Shown here piece after piece: positions 14,878-63,828 of a stretch of 64,000 bases of DNA. The position numbers and the translations under genes are program-made. The DNA comes from Candidatus Amesbacteria bacterium RIFCSPLOWO2_01_FULL_49_25. GTDB taxonomy: Bacteria; Patescibacteriota; Microgenomatia; CAZETR01; Amesbacteraceae. The stretch spans positions 5,073 to 69,072 of the forward strand of contig MEXP01000009.1 of the NCBI GenBank assembly GCA_001773725.1. The letters run 5' to 3'. Below the pieces are notes generated by a model, which worked only from the letters and a program-made list of their open reading frames with translations, did no database searches and was not told where the DNA came from. Numbering within the stretch: position 1 is the first letter of the stretch; each line of letters opens with the position of its first letter.

Positions 14878-17158
<2,281 letters not shown>

Positions 17159-17160
17159 GG

Positions 17161-39285: not shown

Positions 39286-40782
39286 TTATGACCTGCGGGT
39301 GCGGTTCTGGATGGTAATCTCCCCAAACTGCTGTTGATGGTTGAATGTGGAGAAGTACTTTTCTTTGTCTAATATCTTGTCGACTAAGTCAACCGGGATT
39401 CCCTGGGACGGCTCGATGATGACAAAGACTAGAGGTATGGACGGCGAGAAAGAAAGATTATTTCCCAATTGGCCAATCTGGTTCTCTCCATGCCAGTAAG
39501 GTAAATAGCCGTATTTGGTTTTACCGTACCAGTTGAATAGATACGACCAGGTGGTGTTGATATAAAGCGGGGAGGTGACGGAATTGAAAGTAAACGGCCT
39601 TCCCTGGGCCTGACTGTACATATAATCGATGGCATCAAGTTCATGGTGCAAGGTCATGGTCTTTTGAATGGCAAATTCGGTCAGGCCTTGAGAATTTTTT
39701 TGTTTGATATAAGACAGGTTGGACAAGACTATAAAAACAATGATTGTGGCTTTTACCCACGAAGATTTGAGCCGAGACAGAAAATAAACCGTAAAAAGGA
39801 TGACTAACATGCCAAGTCCAGTGTGAATATATGGGGTGCTGATTCCGCCAAATATGAGAGGCGGGGCAAATGAAATTAAACCCAAAGAAAATGTGGCCCA
39901 CCAAGACGGATGGGGCTTAACAAAGACAAAAGCTATCACGAAGCCAAGTACAGCGAGTGTGGGTTGAGTGGGGAAAGTATTGAGACTTATCAGACGTTTA
40001 AATTGGTAAAGGGAGGTGTTTATAAGAGTAAGAGGATTAACTTTGAGTTGTGAATAAGTTGTACGGTTAAATAATAAATTCGCAGGGCCGGAGCGACTGG
40101 GAAAACCGAATTTTATTTCCGAAATTAACATAGTTGATATTGAGAGAGTAAAAAATGATAGTAAAAGTAAGAGTTTTTTTGAGGTAATAGACAATTTTTT
40201 GAGTAAGATCAAAATTAATATGACAGCTGAGTGATAGATAAAAATAAAATTGGATTGGAAGCTCAGGCCCAGTCCAAGACCGGCAAGAATCGGGCCGATG
40301 GTTGAGCGGCGTTGCCATTGCCAAAGACCGTAATATAAAAGAGGCACGAAGAGGATGGCTAAAGCGGTGTTGGTCAGATAGATAGCGTGCTGGGTTTGTT
40401 CGTAAGAGACGGCCGTTAAAAGTGAAGCCAAGGTTGCTAATGACTTGGATTGGAAAAGCCGAAGGCCGATAAAATATGCCAGAAAGATGGCGAGTGAGTT
40501 AATAAAAGACAGCCAGCCGGCTGCTACTGCCGGACTTCCCCGTCCCAACCAATAACCCGGGGCAATAACATAGTAATAGAGAACGCCGTGAAAAAAGTCC
40601 CGAGTGGAAGTAGGTGGTCCCTGAATTTTTATGTCCCCGTGAAGAAGCTCTTGAATGGTATAAGCGTCACGTGCCTGGTCGTAACTGAACATTAAATCTC
40701 CCCCGGGTAGGTAGCGGATCCGGATCAAAAACCCCAGGAAAAAAATAGTTAATACTAACCAATATCGCTTAAGAAAGCTCAT
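39286..40782 (-). CDS. GT-C-fold membrane glycosyltransferase, ArnT-like (family B, 'D[EQ]xRDA' loop)
   Basis: 'FSYDQARDAYTIQELLHG' loop after TM1, 'YYYVIAPGYWLG', ~12 TM; paralog of 57745-62071 genes. Confidence 0.7.
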   Translation of the reverse strand: MSFLKRYWLVLTIFFLGFLIRIRYLPGGDLMFSYDQARDAYTIQELLHGDIKIQGPPTSTRDFFHGVLYYYVIAPGYWLGRGSPAVAAGWLSFINSLAIFLAYFIGLRLFQSKSLATLASLLTAVSYEQTQHAIYLTNTALAILFVPLLYYGLWQWQRRSTIGPILAGLGLGLSFQSNFIFIYHSAVILILILLKKLSITSKKLLLLLSFFTLSISTMLISEIKFGFPSRSGPANLLFNRTTYSQLKVNPLTLINTSLYQFKRLISLNTFPTQPTLAVLGFVIAFVFVKPHPSWWATFSLGLISFAPPLIFGGISTPYIHTGLGMLVILFTVYFLSRLKSSWVKATIIVFIVLSNLSYIKQKNSQGLTEFAIQKTMTLHHELDAIDYMYSQAQGRPFTFNSVTSPLYINTTWSYLFNWYGKTKYGYLPYWHGENQIGQLGNNLSFSPSIPLVFVIIEPSQGIPVDLVDKILDKEKYFSTFNHQQQFGEITIQNRTRRS

Positions 40783-46993: not shown

Positions 46994-47198
46994 AATCGAA
47001 AGATAAAAGAGAAAAGACTTGGGTTCTGGCCTGATAAAAACCGGTAGTTAATTTGTTTTGAAATATCCTGGAGATAGGCGGTGGGTAATAGCTTCTGCGA
47101 ACAGAGATGGCGTAGATATCAAGATTCGTCAAGGAAAGAAGGCGAAGGTACGTTGATATTGTGAGTACCAAAGCGAGCACAATCCCGAATACTTTCAT
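46965..47198 (-). CDS. Hypothetical small protein (77 aa) with N-terminal hydrophobic segment
   Basis: ATG at 47196-47198 overlaps the TGA stop of the upstream family A gene (ATGA); 'MKVFGIVLALVLTISTYL' looks like a signal/TM helix; no homology recognised; occupies the largest intergenic gap. Confidence 0.25.
   Translation of the reverse strand: MKVFGIVLALVLTISTYLRLLSLTNLDIYAISVRRSYYPPPISRIFQNKLTTGFYQARTQVFSLLSFDYVFRTLGYE
46994..47194 (-). promoter_or_regulatory. Largest non-annotated gap in the minus-strand block (candidate internal promoter / small-ORF region)
   Basis: ~200 bp without a long ORF in the main gene frames between two family A genes; overlapped by the 77-aa ORF. Confidence 0.2.
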
Positions 47199-52430: not shown

Positions 52431-54061
52431 ATGGATATTTTACGGTTAAAGGACAATAAAAGTAGAGACCAGGATATTAGAGAAAGCGTGTTGCCCAGGG
52501 TGCGGATGGGGGTGTTGGTGAATTTGGCCACAATTTCATGACGCCCGGTGGGAAGTGATAACTGCGGACGGCCCAGTAGTGGATCTAGATTATAGTTTTT
52601 CACTTCTGCACCGTCTATCCAGTATCTCCAGCCGGGAAAATAATAAGTTTGCAGTTCGACCAAGGATTGGGGAGAAGTAATGTCAAGAGAATATTTTTGT
52701 AAGTTGGAGGTTTTGATAATTCGGATGAAAGTTCCCAACCCTTGGCTAATATTGAGGTCTGCTCCGACCGGATCGGCTGGAGGAGCGGGAGCATAAATTG
52801 GGAGATAATCGAAGATGCCGGAAGTTACTAATAACTGCCAGGACTTACCGGAAAATTTTTGGGCATCGGTCATGGACGGGTACCATTCTCTGGGACGAAA
52901 ATAGTTCCCATTCATAAATATTAATAAGCTTATTATTAAGGGGACAAAGATTTTTTTGTTGGTGGCCATCATGATAGCTCCGGAGAGAAATGAGGCGGTG
53001 AAGACGGCCAGAGTGAGGAAGCGCCAGGGGAATTGGAGAAATTCGAGCGGTTTTAGCACGAGCCATATGGGAGTGGATTTGGAATGGCTCATGAATAATG
53101 CACCGAGGGTTATAAGAACCAGAATTATGATTAATGATTTATGGTTTACGAATTTTTTGGAGAAAATAAACAACAGGACTAGGATTGGAACTATCCAATA
53201 TAAAAAACCTAGGGCGAAGGACATAGTGTCGGCAGGGCCCAAGATGGATGATCCGTAGCCCCAATTGATGTTGAGAAAGATCTGCTTTAAGTCCAGAAAA
53301 TGGGCCAGGTAGTTAAAATAACCGGAAGTAAGAGTCCAGACAGATACGTATTTAGTTTCGAAAATAACAGGTAAGGTAAAGAAGGCGGCAAGACCCAGGG
53401 ACCACAGAACTGCCAAAAACAAATTTCTAATTGACCTAACTGACCTAAACTTTGCAAGCCAGAAAAGGCACCAGAGAATAAGAACGGGGGTGAAGATCAT
53501 GAGCATGGGATTGTGAGAAAGCATGAGGGCGGCAACGGAGAGGGAGACGAATGGGATCCATTTGGTTTTTTGGTCTTTTATGAGCCGATAAGTGGTCCAA
53601 AAAATGAGCGGATAGAAAGCCATGGCCCAAAATTCGTTGACGGCTGCCCGGACCCAAAAATCCACGGAGTGATATGGCGCGTAAGTGTAAAAAGCTGCAG
53701 AAACGAATCCTCCCCAGCGACCCCAAAATTCCCGAGCCAGCAGGTACATGTTCAAGGCAGTGACTATAAATCCAAAAATCCCGACGACCTTTACTACGTC
53801 GATGTATTGAAACCCGAGCCACACAAATGGCTGGCCGATTAAGTATGGTAAGGGCGGATAATAGTTGAACAGTGGATAGCCGAAACCATAGCCCATATCC
53901 GGAACCCAGCGGCAGGGAATCTGACCGTCTTGAAAACATTTGTTCAGTTCAAGTTGACGAAAAGCTTGCAAATCGTCGTGCATGGAAAAATAGCCCTTTT
54001 GAAATAAAAGAGCAAATGAGGGAAGAATTAAAATTAATAAAATTAGTAAATCTTTTTTCAT
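52415..54061 (-). CDS. Polytopic membrane protein family D (YfhO/PTPS-related-like GT-C candidate)
   Basis: 'MHDDLQAFRQLELNKCFQDGQIPCRWVPDMGYGFGYPLFNYYPPLPY'; paralog of 26770-28365. Confidence 0.5.
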   Translation of the reverse strand: MKKDLLILLILILPSFALLFQKGYFSMHDDLQAFRQLELNKCFQDGQIPCRWVPDMGYGFGYPLFNYYPPLPYLIGQPFVWLGFQYIDVVKVVGIFGFIVTALNMYLLAREFWGRWGGFVSAAFYTYAPYHSVDFWVRAAVNEFWAMAFYPLIFWTTYRLIKDQKTKWIPFVSLSVAALMLSHNPMLMIFTPVLILWCLFWLAKFRSVRSIRNLFLAVLWSLGLAAFFTLPVIFETKYVSVWTLTSGYFNYLAHFLDLKQIFLNINWGYGSSILGPADTMSFALGFLYWIVPILVLLFIFSKKFVNHKSLIIILVLITLGALFMSHSKSTPIWLVLKPLEFLQFPWRFLTLAVFTASFLSGAIMMATNKKIFVPLIISLLIFMNGNYFRPREWYPSMTDAQKFSGKSWQLLVTSGIFDYLPIYAPAPPADPVGADLNISQGLGTFIRIIKTSNLQKYSLDITSPQSLVELQTYYFPGWRYWIDGAEVKNYNLDPLLGRPQLSLPTGRHEIVAKFTNTPIRTLGNTLSLISWSLLLLSFNRKISIWMRK

Positions 54062-54069
54062 AATGACTT

Positions 54070-55575
54070 CTATTTAACTGGAATGACCTGGAAAAATAGC
54101 AGGTATTCACGGGTGGTGTCGGGGCGAGCACTTTTGGGGTAACTGGCTATTAACTTAAGGCCTATGGATTCGGGGTCGAAAACATGGAAACGACTGGAAT
54201 TGACGACCAAAAAAACCTGGTTATCGACTAGTGAGTTGGTGAGTTTCTCGTCGACGGAATCGATCCAGACACCGACACCAATAATCCGGGCGTTGGGAAC
54301 GTCGTTGAGGTACATCTGAAGGGCGGAAAAAGGGGTACCAAAAAAGCCTTCGGAGCCGACTAGAACCGATCCGGACTTGGCGGCTTGGCGAAGATAGGCG
54401 GAAACCTCACGAATCCCCTGCCCCGCCGTCCATTCCTCCAAATACCCCGAGCGCTCTATGCGGGAAAGAGGAGCATCTTCGGGGCGGCTGAGTAATTGAT
54501 AATCGATGGCAAGTGAGGGGAAAAAAATCAGAGCCGAGGCGACATAAACTAAAAGATGTTTCTGGGTCTTTTGACTGATGTGTTCAATAGCGTGGGCGAT
54601 AAGGATTACTGCGAAAGGAACGGTAAATAACAAATAACGAGCGGTGAATGACTTGGCGATAAAGGATTGGGCGACAACCGGAATAAGCCACCAGGCGGCC
54701 AGGACTAGACGAGAGCGCCAATGGGTTAAACGACCCTCGATAAGGCCCCAAAATGCAAATAATAGACCTATGGGAGTCAACAGATACAAGTAAAAGCTGA
54801 AAGAATCTTTGAGATGCGGAATCAGTGGATCTAAGGGATGACGCAAAACTTCTGTCAACGAATAAACATAATCTTGATTGCGAAGGGCAATTTGGTGAAA
54901 TTCGGGACCGAGACGCAGTATGTTGTACATCCCAAAAGAAATGCAAAAAGTAATAGTCAAAAGGCAAAATGATTTAAAAATAGTTTTGAATTGAAAGTTG
55001 GGTAAGAAAATCAGAAGAGTTGGAGACATGACTACCGCAAAGATGGCCGGGGATTTTGTCAGCCAGGCAAACCCAAGGGCGAAACCGGCTAACTGGGACA
55101 TGTCCAGACGAAGGTGAGAGACGGAAAGATAAGATAAGATAAAGGCCCAAAGTACAAACATGGTCAGCAAACTATCCGCCAATGCCATTCGGTCAAAAAA
55201 GACCAGGTAAGGCAGGGCGGCCGATAAAACTGTCGCAACTGAAGTGAGACGCCAGTTTTTAAAAAGAAGATAAGAAGCTAGCGCTATCCCGACCACAGTG
55301 CCTAAGCCGGCAATAGCCGAAAGTGTGCGAGCGGCTACTAGAGGATCGAAAATTATTTTTAGGAAGGGAATAGTGAGCCACATAAAAAGGGGTTGTTTGC
55401 CGTCGGATAAGGGTAAGAACCGAAGGGAGGCTTCGGCTCGCATAACCTGACTCCAGCGGATGTAGATCGATTCATCGGCAAAAACCGGCAAGGAGTTGAG
55501 GTTCCAAAAGCGAAGGAGAGCAGCTAGAAGAAGAACAGCCAGACTGAAGATAATCAGCCGCTTATGATTACTCAT
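54070..55575 (-). CDS. GT-C-fold membrane glycosyltransferase, ArnT-like (family A variant, 'FADESIYIRW' loop)
   Basis: 'LPVFADESIYIRWSQVM' mirrors the ArnT DExRYA loop; ~12 TM; C-terminal soluble domain. Confidence 0.7.
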   Translation of the reverse strand: MSNHKRLIIFSLAVLLLAALLRFWNLNSLPVFADESIYIRWSQVMRAEASLRFLPLSDGKQPLFMWLTIPFLKIIFDPLVAARTLSAIAGLGTVVGIALASYLLFKNWRLTSVATVLSAALPYLVFFDRMALADSLLTMFVLWAFILSYLSVSHLRLDMSQLAGFALGFAWLTKSPAIFAVVMSPTLLIFLPNFQFKTIFKSFCLLTITFCISFGMYNILRLGPEFHQIALRNQDYVYSLTEVLRHPLDPLIPHLKDSFSFYLYLLTPIGLLFAFWGLIEGRLTHWRSRLVLAAWWLIPVVAQSFIAKSFTARYLLFTVPFAVILIAHAIEHISQKTQKHLLVYVASALIFFPSLAIDYQLLSRPEDAPLSRIERSGYLEEWTAGQGIREVSAYLRQAAKSGSVLVGSEGFFGTPFSALQMYLNDVPNARIIGVGVWIDSVDEKLTNSLVDNQVFLVVNSSRFHVFDPESIGLKLIASYPKSARPDTTREYLLFFQVIPVK

Positions 55576-56314
55576 ATTTACCCAGTATACCGTAGAGGCG
55601 GATCTTGAAGGTATCGAGGGCCATCTGGAACGGCTCTTTCCAAATATTTAACCTGTCGGACCAGTATTTGATCCAACTGACCGGAACTTGGGCTATGGCA
55701 TAGCCGTATTTCTGGGCTAAAAACAGCACTTCCACATCGAAGGCTCCCATATAGCCACCGGCAATTTCCCCTTGGGGTAGACACACTTTAAGTTTGGAGA
55801 ATATCTTTCGGGCGGCAGTATGAGTAAATGACTTGAAGCCGCATTGGGAATCCATAATGCCGGGCAGGGCAACAACTTGAACTAGTGTCACAAAAGCCCA
55901 ACTGCGGATTTTGCGAACCAGGGTATCTTTGGCGGTTTGAGTTCGCACACCGATAACCACGTCGGCTCCGGATTTGTGAGCGGAAATGAATTCGGCTACT
56001 TGATGCAGGGGGGTAGACTGGTCGAAATCAGTAAACAAGATATATCTCCCTTTCGCGGCCAACATCCCGGCTGTGACTGCCGCCGCTTTGCCGCCATGGG
56101 GAATTTGTAAAACTTTGATATTCCGGTTCATTACTTTCGAGAGCAAGTTATGCGTGTCGTCCGTTGACCCGTCGTCTACGAATATAAGTTCCCAAGGGTA
56201 TTTTTGCTGTTTTAAGTACTTCAAGGGTAGATCCAAAACCCCAGCTTGAAAATTAGACGATTCGTTGTAAGCCGGGACAACTACAGAAAGATAAATCGGA
56301 TTATTTTTGTTCAT
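55568..56314 (-). CDS. DPM1-like GT2 glycosyltransferase (polyprenyl-phosphate sugar synthase-like, soluble)
   Basis: 'IYLSVVVPAYNESSN', 'LIFVDDGSTDDT', 'ILFTDFDQSTP'. Confidence 0.8.
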   Translation of the reverse strand: MNKNNPIYLSVVVPAYNESSNFQAGVLDLPLKYLKQQKYPWELIFVDDGSTDDTHNLLSKVMNRNIKVLQIPHGGKAAAVTAGMLAAKGRYILFTDFDQSTPLHQVAEFISAHKSGADVVIGVRTQTAKDTLVRKIRSWAFVTLVQVVALPGIMDSQCGFKSFTHTAARKIFSKLKVCLPQGEIAGGYMGAFDVEVLFLAQKYGYAIAQVPVSWIKYWSDRLNIWKEPFQMALDTFKIRLYGILGKYE

Positions 56315-57006
56315 GATTCATGCTCCGCTAATTGTTTGGCAAATTTTAGTTGGTTAATAAAGTTTATTAATCCAAGAAATTGGGGGTAAGAGACAATCAT
56401 TTTTATGTCTTCCATGAGACCTGATAATCCTTTCTTCCATATTTTGTTGACTTGGCCAACTCCATTCAATGATACAGACGCAACATTGTATTTGGCAAAG
56501 AAGACGGTATTCATTGCCGGTTCAATGAGATACTTGGGCTGGGAAAAGATTTCCGGATGAAGGTGAAGTATTCTTTTTTTGATGACCCTTTCGCCGGTAT
56601 AGGCCAAGTTGAATCCGATCCAGTCCATCCATATAACGTCGTGGGTTCGATGGCCTAAAACTAAGTCATTATTTCCCTCGAAAAATTTGTTGGCTAATTT
56701 ATTCAAATGATAAGTTTTGAAACCTGTTAGATCTGCGTCTACGAAGGCTATAAATTCCCGGTGGGTGTTTTCCAGTCCGGTTTTAAGAGCCGCTGCTTTA
56801 CCTAAATTTTTGACATGATTAATTAGTGTGATTCCTGAAATTTTGGCCAAGAGTCGCCTTGAATTGTCAGTGGAACCATCATTGACGACGATGATTTCTT
56901 TGACATATTGTGATTTTTTGACCTGGGAGATTATTTCTGATACTCGAGTGCTTTCGTTATAGGTTGGAATGACAACAGAAAGAAGCGGACTAAATTTTGT
57001 AGGCAT
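56311..57006 (-). CDS. DPM1-like GT2 glycosyltransferase
   Basis: 'LLSVVIPTYNESTRV', 'IIVVNDGSTDNS', 'IAFVDADLTGF'; start set at MPTKF. Confidence 0.8.
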   Translation of the reverse strand: MPTKFSPLLSVVIPTYNESTRVSEIISQVKKSQYVKEIIVVNDGSTDNSRRLLAKISGITLINHVKNLGKAAALKTGLENTHREFIAFVDADLTGFKTYHLNKLANKFFEGNNDLVLGHRTHDVIWMDWIGFNLAYTGERVIKKRILHLHPEIFSQPKYLIEPAMNTVFFAKYNVASVSLNGVGQVNKIWKKGLSGLMEDIKMIVSYPQFLGLINFINQLKFAKQLAEHES

Positions 57007-57742
57007 GGGTGAGGGAACGGAAGCGGACAAGAAGAAGCCCTGTGAGTCCTGCGATTGCATCTTTGACAAAGCTCACTCGGCGAGACTCCTGGTGACGCCA
57101 GGAGACGGGAACTTCGACAATCTTGTAGCCCATTTTCCTGCCTAAGTAAAGCATTTCTACATCAAAACCAGGGTTAACTGCTGGCCCCGAAATTACGCGG
57201 GGGGGAGTAATTTTGTTCATGATCTGGAAGATCCTTTTGCCAGCTTCCGCTGTAAAGGCCTTGAAGCCGCATTGTGTATCTTTAATTGGCAGCTGGAGAA
57301 TGAGAGCTCGCATAATTACGTTTCCGTAAGCAAGAACTTTCCTAAATAAAGGGGCGTTGGGACGACCGGAGCGTGAACCGATAACTATGGAGTAGCCAGA
57401 TCTAAGTTTTGGTAAAAATTTATCCAGCTCAGTTATGGGCGTGGCTTGATCCATATCAGAAAATAAAATAATTTCGCCTTTGGCGGAAAAAACACCGGTG
57501 GCTATACCAGCGGCTTTGCCCATATGAGGATTGTCTATAATGGTGAGTTCGCTGTGGCGATTTGCCAGCTCATGTAAGAGCGAAGATGTGTTATCGGAGG
57601 AACCGTCGTTGACTATTATTACTTCCCAAGTGAAATTCTGTTCCTTGAGGTAATCAATGACAACATTAAGCGACCCGCGATGAAGGTTATCAGCTTCGTT
57701 ATAAGCAGAAATGACGACTGATAGGTATGGTTGATCGTTCAT
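56990..57742 (-). CDS. DPM1-like GT2 glycosyltransferase
   Basis: 'PYLSVVISAYNEADNL', 'VIIVNDGSSDNT', 'ILFSDMDQATP'. Confidence 0.8.
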   Translation of the reverse strand: MNDQPYLSVVISAYNEADNLHRGSLNVVIDYLKEQNFTWEVIIVNDGSSDNTSSLLHELANRHSELTIIDNPHMGKAAGIATGVFSAKGEIILFSDMDQATPITELDKFLPKLRSGYSIVIGSRSGRPNAPLFRKVLAYGNVIMRALILQLPIKDTQCGFKAFTAEAGKRIFQIMNKITPPRVISGPAVNPGFDVEMLYLGRKMGYKIVEVPVSWRHQESRRVSFVKDAIAGLTGLLLVRFRSLTHAYKI

Positions 57743-57744
57743 TG

Positions 57745-59187
57745 TTACTTAGTAAAACCGAACATGGGATCAGTTAAATTGGAGTCTGCCCCAGAACAGC
57801 TGATTTTAACATTTGGGGCTGTATAACGCCAATAATCCGGGAATACTATTCCTAAAGCGCCAAAAGTGAGGTCCAATCGATTGGCTCGGGGGTGGGGAAA
57901 GACGACAGTATAAACTGGAGCCAGACTATTAACCGGGGCGGTTTTGACTTTGGCCAACCAGAAAAGATAGCGGTAGCCTAATTGGTAACCCTCGTCGGTC
58001 ATATAGGAAACGGAAACGCAGGGATAGTCATGTAATTTGGAGTCGGCGAATATTGCGGCAACCGCGGCTTTGCGCTCAATATAACCGCTGTGATTGACGG
58101 GGAGATCAACTAATCGAATAATGTTATGAACTACAAAAAAAGGTAAGATTAGGAAAGATAATTTTGGATATCGACTGAGAAATAGGGCTGCGATAATAAT
58201 AAATATAATATTCAGGCTATTGAGATAGTATTCGGAAAGGTTGATGGGGTGGAGAGAGAAAAAAAGAACGAATAATACAAACCAGCTTACAAAGACAAAA
58301 ACTTGGTAAGAAGTGAGAATTTTCTTCCTAATTAAATAAACAAACGCGATTAAGACAATGATGGGCAAAAACCAAAAGTTGAGTGCGTTGGGTTTGTTCC
58401 AAAAAATATAGTTTATATTTCTGGCGGCGTATTCAACGACGTGCCAGATTTTTTCGAAGAGCGGACGGGAAATTTGAGAAGTTTTGTCGAAAGAAAAAAA
58501 CAGGGCTTTAGTTTGGCTGAAACCGTGACGAAATTCAAAAACAATGAGAGGCAGGGAAAGAAGAACAAATATAACTCCCGGTTTTAGGAAATCTGAAAAT
58601 TTATGGTGTTTGCGGACGGCCAAAAAAGCCAGAACGGTGAGAATCCCAAGAGCCAAATGGATATGCCAGACGAGCGAGAAAAGGAAGGCAAAATAGATCA
58701 GTGACCGACGATGGAGGGCAAAAAGAAACCAGATTGACCACAAAAATACTAACGTGGTGGGAACAACCTCGCGCTCAGTGGCGGAAATACCAAAAGAAGC
58801 GGCATAGATTAGGGTAGAAATAATGGCGACCTTTTTGCCCCATATTTTTTGTGTCACATAAAAGAGGCTTATTATTGAGATAAACCCAATTAGCCACGGC
58901 AAAGCTACAGTACCAATGGGATCCATACGGGTGGCCAAATAGAAGGGGATTAGGGCGTAGTAAAAATAAGGGCCGATGAAGATTCCCTGGGCCGTGGTTT
59001 GCTGGCCGATGAGGCGGAGGTGTTTATCGACGACGATATCTTTAACTATCCAGGCAGAAAGATCATTATCATGGTTGTAGTTGAAGCGCTCTTTATACTG
59101 GTAAACCCTCACAAACATTCCGATAGCCAATATTGCCAACAAGGGAATTATGCTGATTGTTTTAAATGAATTAATTAACTTATGCAT
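57745..59187 (-). CDS. GT-C-fold membrane glycosyltransferase, ArnT-like (family B)
   Basis: 'NYNHDNDLSAWIVKDIVVD...GIFIGPYFYYALIPFYL', ~12 TM. Confidence 0.65.
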   Translation of the reverse strand: MHKLINSFKTISIIPLLAILAIGMFVRVYQYKERFNYNHDNDLSAWIVKDIVVDKHLRLIGQQTTAQGIFIGPYFYYALIPFYLATRMDPIGTVALPWLIGFISIISLFYVTQKIWGKKVAIISTLIYAASFGISATEREVVPTTLVFLWSIWFLFALHRRSLIYFAFLFSLVWHIHLALGILTVLAFLAVRKHHKFSDFLKPGVIFVLLSLPLIVFEFRHGFSQTKALFFSFDKTSQISRPLFEKIWHVVEYAARNINYIFWNKPNALNFWFLPIIVLIAFVYLIRKKILTSYQVFVFVSWFVLFVLFFSLHPINLSEYYLNSLNIIFIIIAALFLSRYPKLSFLILPFFVVHNIIRLVDLPVNHSGYIERKAAVAAIFADSKLHDYPCVSVSYMTDEGYQLGYRYLFWLAKVKTAPVNSLAPVYTVVFPHPRANRLDLTFGALGIVFPDYWRYTAPNVKISCSGADSNLTDPMFGFTK

Positions 59188-59189
59188 AA

Positions 59190-60620
59190 TTATTCAAATT
59201 TATGACGGAAGCGGCGCTGAACTAAGAGGGGACCGATTTGATGTTCTTCTTCGACAGATGAGAAAAAGCTTTGACGGACGAGCCAGGTGTATCTAAGCTG
59301 AGGATGCTCATCGTCGGGTTCTACTATAGTGTAAAGGCGAGTGACCAGCCCGGTATCGGGAAAACGACGGTACCAGGTGGTACCGCGCCAGAGAAAGACA
59401 TAATCATAGGCGTGGGGAATAATCGGCGGCACATAGGCATCCGTATTAAAAGCCCGGTCTTTGGCATCTGTGTAGACCCAGTCTACTGCCTGGAGAATGG
59501 GGGAAAGGGAAATATAACCCGGAAAAGGACGGGAGAGCAGTGCAAAAGTCTGGGAAATGTTCTGGTAGAGAAAGACTGCTAAAAAGGAGACTAAAACCAA
59601 GCGATTTAAGCGAATGGCCAAGACGGAAAAAATGATAACAAAAACTAAATAAAACCCAGTGAAATAATAGTCATAAACGTTACCCTCATTGCCATGAAAA
59701 AAGAGCATGCCGACTAATGGTGTGAAAAACAGCACTAAAAGGAGTTGGAAGTGATTTGAGAATTTGCGAAATAAGGAAAGCCCACAAAGGGGGAGAAATA
59801 TATAAGCCGGAAGAAGACTGGAGGGGAACAATTTGGATCCGAAGGTTTGGAGATAAAAAGGCAGACGTACTATAAGAGTGTCCAAAAAAGAGAGTTGGAA
59901 ACTTTTGTCGGCAACAAAAAATTTGAGCAAATTTTGACTAATAATTCCCTGATGCCGGATATCAAAAAGAATCTGGGGAGCGAAACTGAGAAAGATGGCG
60001 GACAGGGAGAGAAGAAAAATTTTAAAACCGGGGAAAAGTGATCTATTGAAAGCTAAAAAAATAATAATGGCGGGTAGGATAAAAATTTCCGTGGCACTAC
60101 CGAACTGCATGGATTGGCCAAAAAGAAAACCGACCCCTATCCAGGCCCATTTCTTTCCGTCTATGACTTTAAATAAGAAGTAGACCAGAAGCATGTTGAT
60201 AAGAAACATGGGGGTAGGATTGCTTAGCCAGCGGGAAGCGTGCATCAGAGGATATGATATGGCCGTGATGAATACGGCGAGCAGGCCGGCACGGGAACCG
60301 GCGATTTTAGTGGTGAGGTGGCAAACCAAAAAAGCTGCCAGGACAGTGGTTGAGCTTAAGAAAACGGCTGGCCAGACGGGGTTCCCGTTTCCCAACCAAT
60401 AAGCCGGGGTGATCAGCCAATAGTACCAGGGACCGCGGAATATACCGGAGATGCCGGTGACCGGGCCCACCAGAAAGAATTTGCCGTTGTGGATAAAGTC
60501 CCAAATAACCTTTGCGTCGCGACCCTGGTCGTACCAGAAACCCAAGAAATCCTGCGTCCGATAGACACGAAGAAAAAGAGCCAAACCCAAAATAGCTGCC
60601 AAAATTATTTTATGTTTCAT
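59190..60620 (-). CDS. GT-C-fold membrane glycosyltransferase, ArnT-like (family B)
   Basis: 'FWYDQGRDAKVIWDFIHNG...GIFRGPWYYWLITPAYWLG'; start set at MKHKIIL giving ATGA overlap with next gene. Confidence 0.7.
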   Translation of the reverse strand: MKHKIILAAILGLALFLRVYRTQDFLGFWYDQGRDAKVIWDFIHNGKFFLVGPVTGISGIFRGPWYYWLITPAYWLGNGNPVWPAVFLSSTTVLAAFLVCHLTTKIAGSRAGLLAVFITAISYPLMHASRWLSNPTPMFLINMLLVYFLFKVIDGKKWAWIGVGFLFGQSMQFGSATEIFILPAIIIFLAFNRSLFPGFKIFLLSLSAIFLSFAPQILFDIRHQGIISQNLLKFFVADKSFQLSFLDTLIVRLPFYLQTFGSKLFPSSLLPAYIFLPLCGLSLFRKFSNHFQLLLVLFFTPLVGMLFFHGNEGNVYDYYFTGFYLVFVIIFSVLAIRLNRLVLVSFLAVFLYQNISQTFALLSRPFPGYISLSPILQAVDWVYTDAKDRAFNTDAYVPPIIPHAYDYVFLWRGTTWYRRFPDTGLVTRLYTIVEPDDEHPQLRYTWLVRQSFFSSVEEEHQIGPLLVQRRFRHKFE

Positions 60621-62071
60621 ATATTGTGAACCAAACGCAGAACTTTTACACCCCAGGGGAAAGTCCATTCCTGGTCAATTTTGGACCAACCGAAGGCGGC
60701 GATTTCCCATAACGGGTTGTTAATTGGTTCACAGTCACTTTGTTCACAAATGACGAATAGTTGATCGGTCAATTTGTCATGGATGGTGTAATAAGGGGCA
60801 TCATTCAATTGCATAAAGTAGCGATAACTGGCGTCGTAGTTGTTTTTGGCGAGCAAGGCTAAGTTGAAAGGGGAATTTTGGGACTGCGATTTGATGAAGT
60901 TTGCTATTTCTATGGTGCGTGCCAGCTGATTGTTCGGTGAATTGCGGAAAGGGTTATTTTGAAGGGAGACAAAGAACAACGGTAGAACCAGCAGGATTCC
61001 CATAAACGCCAGTTTGGTTTTTTGGAACAGCTGGTTCAGAACGAAACCTAAAAGAAGAAAAATTGCCGGAAAAATAAAACCGTAATAATGATCATAGATG
61101 TGTTGTTTGTACAAACCGAGACCAATCAGGCCAAATCCCAACCAAGAAATAACGAACCAGGCGGCGGGTGATAAGCGGCGGCGAATGGCGTAAAGGATGG
61201 CCAAATCAAACAAACCGAAGGCCGCCCACTTGCCCACTAAGGAATTTTTGCCGGCGAGAAGACTCGTTGCCATGTCTTGCCAAATAGGCCAGAGATTGGG
61301 AACGGCTTTATATACTTTGAAATTGACAGTGGTTTGACGGTCTGTAAAAAAGGTTTTCATGGAGGAATAATTTTGCCAGCCGTGGCGTAAATCAAAGATG
61401 ACCAAGGGCGACATGAGTAATATCAAAATCCCAAACCCCATGAGCCAATATTTTTTGTTTGACTTCTTATCCGAGCTTAAGAATAAAAATAAAAGAATTG
61501 TGGGAAGTAGGAGAAAGCCTAAATAGTGAGAGTTGAGGACAAACGCAAAAGAAACTGCTGAGATGATTAGCCAGCGCCAGCGGCTGAAACGCCAGATATT
61601 CCAAACTCCATACATGGTTAAAAGAGCAAAAAAGGCCATGATATTGGGATTCCACGAAGAACGGGAGTAAATAATAACAGTGGGTGAAAGAGCGTACAAA
61701 GCTGAAACGGTCAATCCCGGCCAGCGTCCAAACCACGAGCGGCTGATCCACCATAAGAGCGCTACGGTTAACAACCCGAGTAAGGCCACAAAAACTGCAG
61801 GGCCAACGGGAGATAGGTTGAATAAAGCCAGAGAGGGGGCGGCTAAATAATAATAGAGAGGACCGAGATACATGTTGCCGATGGAAGTACCTGGACCAAT
61901 GGCGGGAAAGTGTTTGAGAGCGACAATGCCCTTCATAACAAGGGCGTCACGGCCTTCGTCGCCCAGAAAAGTCATGTATTGGTCTATTTTGTAAAGACGC
62001 AAGAAGGCTCCGAGGAGCAAAATGGAAATGATTGCGATTTTTTCTAGTCTCGTTATCGAAGTTTTTTCCAT
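60617..62071 (-). CDS. GT-C-fold membrane glycosyltransferase, ArnT-like (family B)
   Basis: 'TFLGDEGRDALVMKGIVAL...NMYLGPLYYYLAAPSLALF'. Confidence 0.7.
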   Translation of the reverse strand: MEKTSITRLEKIAIISILLLGAFLRLYKIDQYMTFLGDEGRDALVMKGIVALKHFPAIGPGTSIGNMYLGPLYYYLAAPSLALFNLSPVGPAVFVALLGLLTVALLWWISRSWFGRWPGLTVSALYALSPTVIIYSRSSWNPNIMAFFALLTMYGVWNIWRFSRWRWLIISAVSFAFVLNSHYLGFLLLPTILLFLFLSSDKKSNKKYWLMGFGILILLMSPLVIFDLRHGWQNYSSMKTFFTDRQTTVNFKVYKAVPNLWPIWQDMATSLLAGKNSLVGKWAAFGLFDLAILYAIRRRLSPAAWFVISWLGFGLIGLGLYKQHIYDHYYGFIFPAIFLLLGFVLNQLFQKTKLAFMGILLVLPLFFVSLQNNPFRNSPNNQLARTIEIANFIKSQSQNSPFNLALLAKNNYDASYRYFMQLNDAPYYTIHDKLTDQLFVICEQSDCEPINNPLWEIAAFGWSKIDQEWTFPWGVKVLRLVHNI

Positions 62072-62754
62072 AGCCGAAATAGGTCGACAAAACTTTTGAT
62101 AATGACATTCAAGTTGGCCCCAGTGCCGGAACCTGTTTTTCGGGGATAATGATGGACTCCAATTTCGATTATTTTGAATCCTGATTTTTTGGCTTTAATA
62201 AGGAACTCGCTAGAAATAAAGGCTCCCCGCGATGATTCCAGTTTGGGGATAGTGTCAATAACTTTTTTGGAAATAAGTTTAAATCCGCAGTCGATGTCCC
62301 GGATATTTAAACCAAAGAGTAAATTTACTGCTGTTTGCCAAAGTAGAGTATTAGCTTTTCGGTAAAAAGGGACTTGCCTTTTTAAGTAATAGCCAACAAC
62401 TAAGTCAGCCCCAGTTTGCTTTTGATTGTGAATAAAATTTGTAATTTCGGAAAAATCAAATTGGCCATCGGAGTCTGTAAAAGCTATCCAGGGAAATTTG
62501 GCGGCGTATAGTCCGCTTCTTAGGGACGCGCCGTAACCTTGATTGGGATTATGAGTGACGACTTTGATTCGTGCATCCTGGCGGACTAGTTTGGCGGCAA
62601 TTTCAGCTGTCCGGTCTTTGGATCCGTCGTTGACGATTATTATCTCCCAGTTTTTGACGACTTTTTCCAAAATTGATTTGGCCTTAACAACGGTATTTTC
62701 TATTTGTTCTTGTTCGTTGAAGGCCGGAAAAAAGACCGATAGCTCATCAAGCAT
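62053..62754 (-). CDS. DPM1-like GT2 glycosyltransferase
   Basis: 'LSVFFPAFNEQEQI', 'IIIVNDGSKDRT', 'IAFTDSDGQFD'. Confidence 0.8.
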   Translation of the reverse strand: MLDELSVFFPAFNEQEQIENTVVKAKSILEKVVKNWEIIIVNDGSKDRTAEIAAKLVRQDARIKVVTHNPNQGYGASLRSGLYAAKFPWIAFTDSDGQFDFSEITNFIHNQKQTGADLVVGYYLKRQVPFYRKANTLLWQTAVNLLFGLNIRDIDCGFKLISKKVIDTIPKLESSRGAFISSEFLIKAKKSGFKIIEIGVHHYPRKTGSGTGANLNVIIKSFVDLFRLWKKLR

Positions 62755-62787: not shown

Positions 62788-63828
62788 GTGACCAGAGTGG
62801 TAAGAGATTTACTGATCTTGGCGGGTGTGGCTGTGGGATCGACAGTGATTTTGTGGATTACGACAGGGATGAAGGTGGTATATCAAAATTTTGACGGGCC
62901 ATATTACACGGCCGTTGCCAAGTGCTTTTATAACAAAGATTGCCTGGGTAAAAGTTTTGATTTTCCTTTGAAACTGGAATATTACCCGGCGCATTTCCCG
63001 TTGTACCCTACATTCATTAAGTTGATGGAGCCACTTGGGTTGATAAGGGCGGGGTTAATAATAAATATATTGGCCACAGTGGCGGCGGCAATTGTAATAT
63101 ATGAAGTAACAAAGAGGAATTTGTGGATAGCGATGACCTGGTTATTCTTCTGGCCAAGGATGTGGGTGGTGAGATCGATTGCTAGTCCAGAAACTTTATT
63201 TATTTTGTTTGTAGTTTTATCTTTATATCTTTTTGAAAAGAAAAGCTATTGGATGTCTGCATTGGCTGGATCGGCGGCGGTTTTGACAAAAAGCCCGGGA
63301 GTATTGTTGTTCGCGGTTTATGCATTGATGTTTGCAAGAAAACCGGACTCCAAAATATGGCCGGTTTTATTGATCCCCATAACATTGCTAGGGCTGTTTT
63401 ACTTTTTCAAAGTGCAGACAGGTGATTTCTTCGCCTACTTCCATTCGGGGGACAATATTCATTTACAATACTTGCCGTTTAAGGTGTTTGACAGCGGTCA
63501 ACCGTGGGTGGGGACGTTTTGGCTGGAGGATGTGTTGTGGATATACCTAATTGGAGCGATTGGAGTAATTAAAACTATGAGAAAAAATCAGGTGTGGGGC
63601 TACTTCGGAGTGGTGTTCTACGCGACTATTTTGTTCGTGTCACACCGGGATATTGCCCGGTATAGTCTGCCATTGGTGCCGGTAGTTTTGATCGGATTAT
63701 CTGAAATTTTTGAACGACGCGAAGTCAGATGGGCAATGGCGCTGCTTGTCGTACCGATGTTTTTTTACAGTGTGAATTTTCTGCTTCATAACCAATTGTC
63801 AATAGCCGACTGGGCTCCGTTTTTGTAG
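62788..63828 (+). CDS. Polytopic membrane protein resembling PIG-V/Gpi18-type mannosyltransferase (paralog of 19118-20224)
   Basis: 'QNFDGPYYTAVAKCFYN...YYPAHFPLYP' aligns with 'ANFDGNHYIRIAKNGYGYAEEAFFPLYP' of the other copy; ~8 TM. Confidence 0.45.
   Translation: MTRVVRDLLILAGVAVGSTVILWITTGMKVVYQNFDGPYYTAVAKCFYNKDCLGKSFDFPLKLEYYPAHFPLYPTFIKLMEPLGLIRAGLIINILATVAAAIVIYEVTKRNLWIAMTWLFFWPRMWVVRSIASPETLFILFVVLSLYLFEKKSYWMSALAGSAAVLTKSPGVLLFAVYALMFARKPDSKIWPVLLIPITLLGLFYFFKVQTGDFFAYFHSGDNIHLQYLPFKVFDSGQPWVGTFWLEDVLWIYLIGAIGVIKTMRKNQVWGYFGVVFYATILFVSHRDIARYSLPLVPVVLIGLSEIFERREVRWAMALLVVPMFFYSVNFLLHNQLSIADWAPFL

What the first reader, a model, noticed from the sequence alone, without database searches (positions are those of the whole stretch)
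57745..62071. Family B ArnT-like triple in tandem plus a fourth copy at 39286-40782
Three consecutive large membrane proteins (57745-59187, 59190-60620, 60617-62071) and 39286-40782 share a distinct loop 'xxD[EQ]xRDAxxI' ('YDQGRDAKVI', 'GDEGRDALVM', 'YDQARDAYTI', 'HDNDLSAWIV'), followed by 'G(P)xYYYxxAP'. This loop is reminiscent of the ArnT 'DExRYA' motif. The tandem triple is directly followed by a DPM1-like GT2 (62053-62754) that could supply its lipid-linked donor.
Basis: partly seen in the sequence, partly recalled or inferred. Interest (0 to 1): 0.6.

Follow-up and report, generated by a model that had tools for sequence, protein, structure and literature searches.

The report
Tandem membrane glycosyltransferases with donor synthase
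Three neighbouring genes and a fourth copy in an uncultivated Amesbacteria genome encode related membrane sugar-transferases of the ArnT/PMT/STT3 fold, next to the enzyme that most likely makes their lipid-linked sugar donor; this is a sound but fairly ordinary annotation of an uncharacterised enzyme family.

Summary
Four minus-strand ORFs (60617-62071, 59190-60620, 57745-59187, 39286-40782) are real paralogues (23-33% identity, BLASTP E 1e-4 to 1e-26) and carry the quoted loop motifs. The window comes from Candidatus Amesbacteria (Microgenomates, candidate phyla radiation).

AlphaFold models of two copies (pLDDT 92) match only GT-C-fold glycosyltransferases. ArnT is the top hit for the first copy. 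The loop Asp is invariant in 118 of 118 divergent homologues.

These are not ArnT or PMT orthologues. The ArnT-essential Tyr (RYA) and Lys (YFEKP) align to an invariant Asp and to Gly (116 of 118). Profile searches do not recover ArnT. The window has no other arn genes.

The adjacent GT2 (62053-62754) resembles ArnC, GtrB and DPMS and has no membrane helix. In all 80 related genomes where upstream sequence is available, it is fused to the first GT-C (13) or sits directly upstream (64). A second copy follows in 65 of 70 loci, and a third in 38 of 65.

Best reading: an extracytoplasmic glycosylation module in the style of three-component systems, with unknown sugar and acceptor. It is a new, uncharacterised member family of a known kind. 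Public records already label it "ArnT-like" or "GT39". Interest is modest.

The parts
62053..62754 (-). GT2a: soluble polyprenyl-phosphate-sugar-synthase-like GT2 (233 aa, no TM helix). It overlaps the start of GT-C1 by 19 nt.
   Evidence: Pfam Glycos_transf_2 at 102 bits. The best PDB sequence hits are ArnC 2e-16 (residues 4-213), GtrB 7e-12 and P. furiosus DPMS 3e-10. Maximum KD19 hydropathy is 0.94, so no TM segment. It is fused to the GT-C1 orthologue in about two thirds of the closest relatives.
60617..62071 (-). GT-C1: GT-C fold glycosyltransferase (484 aa). Loop motif FLGDEGRDA...YLGPLYYY. C-terminal alpha/beta domain of about 100 aa with a conserved Cys pair.
   Evidence: PMT_2 at 56.7 bits. 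AF2 pLDDT 92, pTM 0.91. Foldseek top hit ArnT at 4e-8. It is 100% identical to a hypothetical protein of Candidatus Amesbacteria RIFCSPHIGHO2_02_FULL_47_9.
59190..60620 (-). GT-C2: paralogue (476 aa) with loop FWYDQGRDA...FRGPWYYW. Its start overlaps the GT-C1 stop by 4 nt.
   Evidence: PMT_2 at 39.8 bits. BLASTP against GT-C1 gives 1e-19 to 9e-26. Orthologues in L001, L003 and L008 keep [WY]YDQGRDA. It lies downstream of GT-C1 in 65 of 70 loci.
57745..59187 (-). GT-C3: divergent paralogue (480 aa) with loop YNHDNDLSAW...FIGPYFYY.
   Evidence: No Pfam hit for the window protein itself, but about half of the listed orthologues carry PF13231. AF2 pLDDT 92.3. Foldseek hits are all GT-C: ALG12 3e-6, ALG9, ArnT 4e-5. 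The orthologue group has invariant H39 D40 D42 L43 W46 D50. It follows GT-C2 in 38 of 65 loci.
39286..40782 (-). GT-C4: dispersed fourth paralogue (498 aa) with loop FSYDQARDA...FHGVLYYY. It is closest to GT-C2.
   Evidence: BLASTP against GT-C2 gives 27% over 499 aa, E 5e-23. PMT_2 is below threshold at 17 bits. It has 293 homologues in Amesbacteria, Woesebacteria and Microgenomates, some carrying PF13231 or PF02366.
55568..57742 (-). Three further soluble GT2 genes of the same operon (56990-57742, 56311-57069, 55568-56314). A GT2 at this position is conserved in related loci.
   Evidence: Pfam Glycos_transf_2. The best NCBIfam similarities are PgfS, ArnC, PpgS and Dol-P-hexose transferase, all far below the equivalog cut-offs. 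No TM segment. A GT2 follows GT-C2 or GT-C3 in the related loci.
54070..55575 (-). PMT-like GT-C of a different subfamily (501 aa, loop ADESIY). It is the next conserved member of the operon.
   Evidence: Pfam PMT at 24.3 bits (cut-off 22.7) and PMT_2 at 27.0. An orthologous position is seen in L001, L003 and L008.
62788..63828 (+). Divergently transcribed polytopic membrane protein that is conserved upstream of the module.
   Evidence: NCBIfam AZOBR_p60025 'cell surface glycopolymer formation protein' at E 3e-12, below cut-off. Its paralogue at 19118-20224 hits PIG-V Mannosyl_trans2. An orthologue sits at the same position in L001, L003, L005-L008 and L049.

Best explanation
The locus encodes an extracytoplasmic glycosylation module of the three-component type.

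Proposed mechanism:
1. GT2a is a membrane-helix-less relative of ArnC, GtrB and DPMS. It transfers a sugar from a nucleotide sugar to polyprenyl phosphate at the cytoplasmic face. It is held at the membrane by GT-C1, through 1:1 co-expression from overlapping genes here and through covalent fusion in many relatives.
2. The polyprenyl-phosphate-sugar is flipped across the membrane.
3. GT-C1, and probably GT-C2 and GT-C3, then use it on the outer face to glycosylate an acceptor. The invariant Asp of the first external loop would act as in other GT-C enzymes.
4. The three tandem paralogues are ancient, each has its own conserved loop variant, and they keep a fixed gene order. I therefore expect them to carry out distinct steps or act on distinct acceptors, or to form a hetero-oligomer.

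What is shown: the GT-C fold, homology to the GT-C superfamily, motif conservation, the type of GT2, and the synteny and fusion.

What is inferred: the donor-acceptor flow, the topology, and catalytic competence.

What is unknown: the sugar, the acceptor and the flippase. The acceptor is most likely a surface glycopolymer or envelope protein, because the surrounding 64 kb is a polysaccharide island with Wzm/Wzt, a Wzx-like protein, GT2, GT4 and sugar-nucleotide enzymes.
For: - Paralogy is shown.
- PMT_2 hits are above the gathering score.
- The AF2 models are confident, and their significant PDB matches are exclusively GT-C enzymes.
- A broad family profile weakly hits STT3B (5e-4), Pmt2 (8e-3) and AglB (0.03) by sequence.
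- D38, R41 and D42 are invariant in 118 divergent homologues. The GT-C3 group has its own invariant HDxDL..W motif.
- GT2a is most similar to the three structurally characterised polyprenyl-phosphate glycosyltransferases and lacks a TM segment.
- Rosetta-stone evidence: about two thirds of the top 120 orthologues are fusions of about 720 aa with GT2 at the N-terminus and PMT_2 after it. Among 80 species-level genomes, 13 are fused and 64 have the GT2 directly upstream, with no exception where upstream sequence exists.
- An N-terminal cytoplasmic GT2 followed by TM1 places the D[EQ]GRDA loop outside the cell, as required for a GT-C active site (inference from the fusion).
- A GT2 fused to a GtrA_DPMS_TM domain lies two genes upstream in identical and related contigs.
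- Three-component systems are an established pathway (PMC11127046, PMC8035078).
Against: - There is no biochemical evidence of any kind, and the organism is uncultivated.
- The sugar and the acceptor cannot be deduced.
- Sequence similarity of the GT-C part to any solved enzyme is marginal. Single-sequence and narrow-profile PDB searches found nothing, and hhalign against ArnT gives E 0.01 with probability 4%.
- TM-scores to known GT-C structures are only 0.55-0.61, and ArnT is not clearly separated from AglB, PglB, ALG12 or STT3.
- The remote NCBIfam similarity of GT-C1 to Agl23 leaves open a flippase-like role.
- It is not shown that GT-C2 and GT-C3 use the same donor as GT-C1. Three more GT2 genes follow in the operon.
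Confidence: 0.75

Rival explanations
1. GT-C1 is not a transferase. It is an Agl23-like translocator for the lipid-linked sugar made by GT2a. GT2a plus GT-C1 would then form a synthase-flippase unit, fused in relatives, that feeds the true transferases GT-C2 and GT-C3.
For: NCBIfam TIGR03663 'flippase activity-associated protein Agl23' matches GT-C1 residues 12-204 at E 4e-12. In Haloarcula hispanica the Agl22/Agl23 pair makes and uses hexose-P-dolichol, and purified Agl23 translocates a lipid-linked oligosaccharide in liposomes (PMC11182771). Only GT-C1 is ever fused to the GT2, and the order GT2, GT-C1, GT-C2, GT-C3 is fixed. No dedicated small flippase gene lies inside the operon.
Against: The Agl23 score (45.7 bits) is far below the family cut-off of 126, so it reflects general GT-C/PMT_2 similarity. 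GT-C1 keeps an invariant external-loop Asp and a conserved external C-terminal domain with a Cys pair, both typical of catalytic GT-C enzymes. A GT2 fused to a GtrA-like domain and a Wzx-like protein are available nearby as flippase candidates.
Confidence: 0.12
2. The proteins are PMT-type (GT39) protein O-glycosyltransferases that modify Ser/Thr-rich envelope proteins such as S-layer proteins, pili or sortase substrates.
For: Public annotation calls several orthologues 'glycosyltransferase family 39 protein'. Some orthologues carry a precomputed PF02366 hit. Pmt2 is a weak profile hit at 8e-3 and Pmt4 is a structural hit. GT2 similarity to PgfS of the streptococcal protein-glycosylation system is seen. 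A sortase and fn3/CAP proteins lie near the locus in a relative.
Against: None of the four window proteins reaches the PF02366 threshold, and no PMT_4TMC domain is found. The family signature D[EQ]GRDA differs from the loop of the true PMT-like gene at 54070 (ADESIY). TM-scores to Pmt1, Pmt2 and Pmt4 are no better than to other GT-C enzymes.
Confidence: 0.15
3. The tandem GT-C enzymes are processive or sequential polymer builders like mycobacterial EmbCAB, Aft and Mpt. They would assemble a glycan chain outside the membrane from polyprenyl-phosphate-sugar donors, rather than adding single side-chain sugars.
For: The window holds at least 17 GT-C-like ORFs alongside many TM-less GT2 genes. The paralogues form a tandem array in a fixed order, as in embCAB. 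Emb, AftA, AftB and AftD appear among the structural hits.
Against: The proteins are small (about 480 aa) and lack the large carbohydrate-binding C-terminal domains of Emb and AftD. The structural matches to Emb and Aft are weaker than those to ArnT, OST and ALG enzymes.
Confidence: 0.15
4. They are true ArnT (GT83) enzymes that add aminoarabinose to lipid A.
For: ArnT is the top structural hit. The best PDB hit of the GT2 is ArnC. JGI names several orthologues '4-amino-4-deoxy-L-arabinose transferase-like'.
Against: The ArnT-essential Tyr of RYA and Lys of YFEKP (PMC5377068) align to D42 (118/118) and G70 (116/118). ArnT is not found by any profile search of the PDB. No ArnA, ArnB, ArnD, ArnE or ArnF homologue appears among the 50 window ORFs scanned. 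From established knowledge rather than a test here, Patescibacteria are monoderm-like and lack lipid A synthesis.
Confidence: 0.01

Closest known systems
ArnC/ArnT pair of the lipid A aminoarabinose pathway (GT2 plus GT83)
   Same: An ArnC-like GT2 sits next to a GT-C enzyme. ArnT is the best structural match of GT-C1. The first external loop begins D-E-x-R-x-A, and an aromatic-x-x-P motif follows about 27-30 residues later, aligning in register with ArnT DETRYA...YFEKP. Both have a small C-terminal external domain.
   Different: The RYA Tyr is replaced by an invariant Asp. The YFEKP Lys is replaced by Gly (116 of 118). There is no detectable sequence-profile hit to ArnT. The GT2 lacks the two C-terminal TM helices of ArnC. 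No ArnA, ArnB, ArnD, ArnE or ArnF is present. The host has no lipid A acceptor.
Three-component glycosylation systems (GtrA/GtrB/GtrC, CsbB/GtcA/YfhO, GacI/GacJ/GacL, and the Ribf system with GT136)
   Same: The logic is the same: a polyprenyl-phosphate GT2, a flippase, and a GT-C transferase that acts outside the membrane on a glycopolymer. The genes are clustered.
   Different: Here the GT2 has no membrane anchor and is fused or translationally coupled to the GT-C. Up to three paralogous GT-C genes follow one GT2. The GtrA-like element is a domain of a separate GT2 gene two genes upstream. The papers I read on these systems do not mention such a fusion.
Agl22/Agl23 of Haloarcula hispanica (TIGR03663)
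   Same: A Dol-P-hexose synthase GT2 is paired with a PMT_2-like polytopic membrane protein. GT-C1 gives its only NCBIfam hit to this family (E 4e-12).
   Different: The score is far below the family cut-off. Agl23 is described as a flippase, not a transferase. The two come from different domains of life and use different lipid carriers.
Protein O-mannosyltransferases (PMT, GT39) with Ppm1/DPM1
   Same: GT-C fold, an acidic motif in loop 1, and a polyprenyl-phosphate-sugar donor from a DPM1-type GT2. TM-less DPM1 and Ppm1 catalytic domains also depend on a membrane partner.
   Different: No PF02366 hit passes threshold and there is no PMT_4TMC or MIR domain. The loop signature is distinct. The true PMT-like gene of the operon is a different ORF (54070-55575).
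EmbC-EmbA-EmbB tandem GT-C arabinosyltransferases
   Same: Tandem paralogous GT-C genes with a conserved order. Hetero-oligomers are known (EmbA-EmbB).
   Different: The Emb proteins are more than 1000 aa with carbohydrate-binding domains, belong to GT53 and use a DPA donor. Their structural match here is weaker.

Membership tests
GT-C fold superfamily (Pfam clan containing PMT_2 PF13231) | Significant match to a GT-C family HMM | tested here: met
   PMT_2 scores 56.7 bits (GT-C1) and 39.8 bits (GT-C2) against a cut-off of 26.1. GT-C4 scores 17.0, below the cut-off, and GT-C3 has no hit, but many orthologues of both carry PF13231.
GT-C fold superfamily (Pfam clan containing PMT_2 PF13231) | Polytopic membrane fold with a long first external loop, structurally matching solved GT-C enzymes | tested here: met
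   AF2 pLDDT is 92 for GT-C1 and GT-C3. All Foldseek PDB hits with E<=1e-3 are GT-C enzymes: ArnT, AglB, PglB, STT3, ALG3/9/12, PMT, AftD and Emb.
GT-C fold superfamily (Pfam clan containing PMT_2 PF13231) | Conserved acidic residue in the first external loop just after TM1 | tested here: met
   D38 is present in 118/118 homologues and in all four window paralogues.
ArnT / GT83 | RYA motif with the essential Tyr (Y43 of B. cenocepacia ArnT; PMC5377068) | tested here: not met
   It aligns to R41-D42-A43, and D42 is invariant at 118/118. GT-C3 has L-S-A at this position.
ArnT / GT83 | YFEKP motif with the essential Lys (K69 of B. cenocepacia ArnT) | tested here: not met
   It aligns to M-Y-L-G70-P71, and G70 is present in 116/118.
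ArnT / GT83 | Detectable sequence homology to ArnT itself | tested here: not met
   No ArnT chain appears at E<=10 in phmmer or profile searches of the PDB. hhalign against E. coli ArnT gives E 0.01 and probability 4%.
ArnT / GT83 | arn operon context and a lipid A acceptor | tested here: not met
   No ArnA, ArnB, ArnD, ArnE or ArnF-like domain was found in the 50 window ORFs scanned. The absence of lipid A in Patescibacteria is established knowledge and was not tested here.
ArnT / GT83 | CAZy/dbCAN GT83 HMM assignment | not testable with these tools
   No dbCAN library is available.
PMT / GT39 | PF02366 (PMT) plus the PF16192 (PMT_4TMC) domains | tested here: not met
   None of the four proteins hits either domain at E<=1. 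Only the neighbouring ORF 54070-55575 passes PF02366.
PMT / GT39 | Asp-Glu motif in loop 1 | tested here: met
   D-E in GT-C1, D-Q in GT-C2 and GT-C4, D-N in GT-C3. This feature is shared with most GT-C enzymes, so it does not discriminate.
Three-component (GtrABC-type) glycosylation system | Polyprenyl-phosphate glycosyltransferase of the GtrB/ArnC/DPMS type | tested here: met
   The top PDB hits of GT2a are ArnC 2e-16, GtrB 7e-12 and DPMS 3e-10. All NCBIfam hits are below the equivalog cut-offs.
Three-component (GtrABC-type) glycosylation system | GT-C transferase genetically linked to that GT2 | tested here: met
   13 loci are fused and 64 have the GT2 directly adjacent, out of 80 loci. There is no exception where upstream sequence exists.
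Three-component (GtrABC-type) glycosylation system | Dedicated small flippase (GtrA, GtcA or ArnEF) | tested here: inconclusive
   There is no stand-alone GtrA in the window. A GT2 fused to a GtrA_DPMS_TM domain lies just beyond the window end in identical contigs (L005-L006). A Wzx-like protein is at 50952-52430.
Agl23 (TIGR03663) | Score above the NCBIfam cut-off (126.25 bits) | tested here: not met
   45.7 bits, covering only the N-terminal half.

The most novel reading that the evidence does not exclude
GT2a and GT-C1 form an obligate unit that makes and then hands over its own lipid-linked sugar. In many Microgenomates this unit is a single polypeptide. It would couple synthesis of a polyprenyl-phosphate-sugar on the inside to its translocation, with GT-C1 acting as an Agl23-like flippase that feeds GT-C2 and GT-C3. 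If so, the natural fusions are a ready-made system for seeing how monophosphate-linked sugars cross the membrane. For most such pathways that step is still unresolved.
Probability: 0.12. Interest if true: 0.7.

Novelty: new member of a known kind. Interest (0 to 1): 0.33.

Why it matters
Candidate phyla radiation bacteria have tiny genomes, yet this one spends a contiguous 64 kb on glycosyltransferases, including at least 17 GT-C-fold enzymes. The module studied here is conserved across Amesbacteria, Woesebacteria, Shapirobacteria and other Microgenomates, in at least 506 species-level genomes. It therefore probably builds a core envelope glycan of an uncultivated lineage.

The natural GT2-GT-C fusions give unusually direct genomic evidence for which donor synthase serves which GT-C enzyme. 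They would also be attractive single-chain targets for structural work on donor hand-over.

The family signature (F-L-G-D-[EQ]-G-R-D-A ... Y-L-G-P-x-Y-Y-Y) separates it cleanly from ArnT and PMT, and should stop automatic 'ArnT' or 'GT39' names from being read as function. Beyond that, this is a careful annotation, not a surprise.

Tried and rejected
- **Frameshift or assembly error at the GT2a/GT-C1 junction: rejected.** One extra A in the A6 run at about 62065-62070 would fuse the frames, giving ...FRLWKKTSITRLEKI..., collinear with the fused relative P0002. However, the identical split junction occurs in independent JGI, ENA and Logan assemblies. A Woesebacteria genome has the same ...LW[RK]KLR* GT2 end with an overlapping GT-C1 start. 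Another lineage has a clean ATGA split. Programmed -1 frameshifting on the A-run cannot be excluded, but nothing requires it.

- **GT-C3 as a decayed pseudo-enzyme: rejected.** Its loop reads HDNDLSAW and lacks R-D, but its orthologue group has its own invariant H-D-x-D-L-x-x-W motif and a confident GT-C model.

- **PDB sequence searches with a single sequence and with the narrow profile** found nothing for the GT-C part. The A2 profile found only GT2 structures, because most of its rows are fusions.

- **Cluster look-up of ten distant representatives** gave no organism names.

- **Literature searches** for candidate phyla radiation, Patescibacteria or Microgenomates GT-C enzymes, or for GT2-GT-C fusions, found nothing relevant in the held library. 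The ArnT structure paper PMC4963604 is not held, so residue-level comparison with C. metallidurans ArnT was not possible.

Full report
**Source and context**

The 60617-62071 product is 100% identical to a hypothetical protein of Candidatus Amesbacteria bacterium RIFCSPHIGHO2_02_FULL_47_9. This organism belongs to the Microgenomates within the Patescibacteria (candidate phyla radiation). Almost the whole 64-kb window is one minus-strand glycan-biosynthesis island. Pfam scans of 50 ORFs find:
- at least 17 GT-C-like membrane proteins (PMT_2, PMT, PTPS_related, GT87/ALG6-like, PIG-V-like);
- about 20 GT2 or GT4 enzymes;
- a Wzm/Wzt ABC exporter (112-2392);
- a Wzx-like protein (50952-52430);
- GDP-mannose dehydratase plus an epimerase (17161-18138, 15480-16403);
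- methyltransferases and an AsnB-like amidotransferase.

**Checking the observation**

The five ORFs exist as stated, all on the minus strand. For the middle gene the start at 60620 is preferred over the mechanical 60668. It gives a 4-nt overlap with the upstream stop, as in orthologous loci.

The four proteins are true paralogues. They share 23-33% identity, with BLASTP E 1e-15 to 1e-26 within the triple and 5e-23 between 39286 and 59190. They form a group distinct from the window's seven-copy PMT_2 family, whose loop reads DEAxxGYNAYSLLxTGRDE, and from the PMT-like 54070 gene (ADESIY).

**What the proteins are**

- Pfam PMT_2 passes its curated threshold for GT-C1 (56.7 bits) and GT-C2 (39.8 bits). 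It is sub-threshold for GT-C4 and absent for GT-C3.
- Many orthologues of GT-C3 and GT-C4 carry PF13231 in precomputed annotation.
- AlphaFold2 models built on orthologue alignments are confident: GT-C1 has pLDDT 92.0 and pTM 0.91, and GT-C3 has pLDDT 92.3 and pTM 0.91.
- Both models show an N-terminal TM helix, a loop of about 60 residues with short helices, a bundle of further TM helices, and a C-terminal alpha/beta domain of about 100 residues.
- For GT-C1, Foldseek against the PDB returns only GT-C glycosyltransferases at E<=1e-3. ArnT (5F15/5EZM) is first (E 4e-8, TM 0.61), followed by AglB, PglB, ALG12, STT3 and Pmt4.
- For GT-C3 the order is ALG12, ALG9, ArnT and STT3.
- TM-scores are 0.55-0.61 throughout, so the fold class is certain but the nearest family is not sharply resolved.
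- By sequence, a broad family profile hits STT3B (5e-4), Pmt2 (8e-3) and AglB (0.03), but not ArnT. Narrower queries hit nothing.

**The loop**

I aligned 118 representatives, each from a different 50%-identity cluster and 26-55% identical to GT-C1. The signature is F35-L-G-D38-[E/Q]-G40-R41-D42-[A/V] ... G59-P ... S63-x-G65 ... Y68-L-G70-P71-x-Y-Y-Y. D38, R41 and D42 are each present in 118/118.

Each tandem paralogue has its own conserved version in orthologues:
- GT-C1: FLGDEGRD
- GT-C2: [WY]YDQGRDA
- GT-C3: HD[NG]DL[AS]SW, with H39, D40, D42, L43, W46 and D50 invariant in 56 sequences.

GT-C3 is therefore diverged, not decayed.

hhalign against E. coli ArnT is statistically weak (E 0.01, probability 4%). 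It nevertheless aligns GDEGRDA with PDETRYA and MYLGP with YFEKP in register.

In ArnT, however, the Tyr of RYA and the Lys of YFEKP are required for function (PMC5377068). In this family those positions are an invariant Asp and a Gly (116 of 118). This, the absence of arn genes, and the lack of any profile hit to ArnT mean the proteins are not ArnT orthologues. They also lack the PMT and PMT_4TMC domains of GT39.

**The GT2 and the genomic linkage**

GT2a (62053-62754) is most similar to ArnC (2e-16 over residues 4-213), GtrB (7e-12) and archaeal DPMS (3e-10). These are the three structurally characterised polyprenyl-phosphate glycosyltransferases (also for the fused profile). Unlike them it has no TM segment.

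About two thirds of the 120 closest GT-C1 orthologues are proteins of about 720 aa with GT2 at the N-terminus followed by PMT_2.

A scan of species-representative genomes found at least 506 genomes with a relative. The named ones are Amesbacteria, Woesebacteria, Shapirobacteria and other Microgenomates. I classified ORFs in the best 80 loci with paralogue-specific HMMs:
- GT-C1 is fused to the GT2 in 13 loci and directly preceded by it in 64. There is no exception where upstream sequence exists.
- GT-C2 follows within 2.6 kb in 65 of 70 loci.
- GT-C3 follows GT-C2 in 38 of 65 loci. In 25 of the remaining loci a GT2 follows GT-C2 directly.

The wider order is also conserved: trmD, a GT2 fused to a GtrA_DPMS_TM domain, a divergent membrane protein (62788-63828 in the window), GT2a, GT-C1, GT-C2, sometimes GT-C3, one or more GT2 genes, a PMT-like GT-C, a PTPS_related protein and a Wzx-like protein.

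A whole-library HMM search gives 11,663 cluster representatives at E<=1e-3 and 1,056 at E<=1e-30. Only about 8 of the 118 aligned representatives are fusions.

**The junction**

In the window, GT2a ends ...FRLWKKLR* and GT-C1 starts at an ATG 19 nt upstream of that stop, in the -1 frame. One extra A in an A6 run would fuse the two genes. The split state is real:
- the identical junction occurs in independent assemblies;
- Woesebacteria share the ...LW[RK]KLR* GT2 end;
- a third lineage has an ATGA overlap.

**Mechanism**

The most economical reading is a three-component-type pathway (PMC11127046, PMC8035078).
1. GT2a charges polyprenyl phosphate in the cytoplasm, anchored by fusion or coupling to GT-C1.
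2. The lipid-linked sugar is flipped across the membrane.
3. The GT-C enzymes transfer it to an external acceptor using the invariant loop Asp.

The N-terminal position of the GT2 in the fusions fixes TM1 as running from inside to outside. This puts the signature loop outside the cell. The conserved Cys pair (C442/C447) in the C-terminal domain fits an external location.

The acceptor and the sugar are unknown. The polysaccharide-island context favours a surface glycopolymer, but a protein acceptor is possible.

One alternative deserves mention. GT-C1 might act like Haloarcula Agl23, a PMT_2-like protein reported to translocate lipid-linked glycans (PMC11182771). GT-C1 has a remote NCBIfam similarity to that family. 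I rate this at about 0.12.

**Verdict**

The finding is a well-supported annotation of an uncharacterised, Microgenomates-wide GT-C subfamily and its cognate donor synthase. It is a new member family of a known kind. It is already loosely labelled in public databases, it has an informative Rosetta-stone fusion, and it has no unexpected biology so far.

Noticed in passing
window 62053-62071 (A6 run at about 62065-62070, minus strand): GT2a and GT-C1 overlap by 19 nt in the -1 frame. One extra A in the A6 run would produce a GT2-GT-C fusion of about 717 aa, like those found in most close relatives. The split is reproducible across assemblies and lineages. A low level of -1 frameshifting or transcriptional slippage that yields some fused protein is not excluded.
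   Followed up: partly
window 21986-32649, 45464-46993, 47195-48799 (minus strand): A second, larger GT-C paralogue family has seven copies of 500-555 aa. Five are in one run, interrupted by 26770-29573. They are 26-38% identical to each other. Their loop motif is DEAxxGYNAYSLLxTGRDE...FGD[FY]KP, and several copies pass the PMT_2 threshold.
   Followed up: partly
window 2732-4477, 4506-6362, 6951-8888 (minus strand): Three tandem paralogous membrane proteins of 581-645 aa (29-34% identical, E down to 1e-84). Two have no Pfam hit and one has a sub-threshold PMT_2 match that starts at residue 169. This may be another uncharacterised GT-C-like family.
   Followed up: no
window 26770-28461 and 52415-54061 (minus strand): A pair of 40%-identical membrane proteins (E 1e-110) with an MHDD/MHDF motif near the N-terminus and weak PTPS_related and PMT_2 similarity. 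The 52415 copy occupies a conserved position downstream of the module in related genomes.
   Followed up: partly
window 112-2392, 10321-11127, 15480-18138 (minus strand): Wzm/Wzt-type ABC exporter with a Wzt_C carbohydrate-binding domain, an FkbM-family methyltransferase, and GDP-mannose 4,6-dehydratase plus an epimerase/reductase. These are the hallmarks of an ABC-transporter-dependent polysaccharide containing a 6-deoxyhexose. That polysaccharide is a plausible acceptor for the GT-C enzymes.
   Followed up: no
window 62788-63828 (+) and 19118-20224 (-): Paralogous membrane proteins (27% identity, E 1e-11). The first is conserved and divergently transcribed upstream of the GT2a/GT-C1 module in all related loci inspected. 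It weakly matches the NCBIfam 'AZOBR_p60025 cell surface glycopolymer formation protein'. The second hits Pfam PIG-V mannosyltransferase.
   Followed up: partly
window 40769-41932 (minus strand): A 387-aa polytopic membrane protein with no Pfam or NCBIfam hit overlaps the start of the fourth copy (39286-40782) by 14 nt, so the two are probably co-translated.
   Followed up: no
L049 7452-8447 and equivalent gaps of about 1 kb in most Woesebacteria-like loci (L025-L088): In Woesebacteria-type loci an unrelated gene of about 330 aa sits between GT-C1 and GT-C2. By eye it contains a DHH-type motif and looks like an NrnA-like phosphoesterase. I did not run it against Pfam.
   Followed up: no
L001 15007-15699 (minus strand): In an Amesbacteria relative that lacks GT-C3, an IS200-like Y1 transposase gene (PF01797) lies within the operon, between the GT2 genes and the PMT-like GT-C.
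   Followed up: no
L014-L089 record titles: Many MAG records that carry this Microgenomates-type locus are titled 'uncultured Gammaproteobacteria bacterium' or 'Pseudomonadales', and one 'Bdellovibrionales'. These are probably placeholder or erroneous taxonomy labels, or mis-binned contigs.
   Followed up: no
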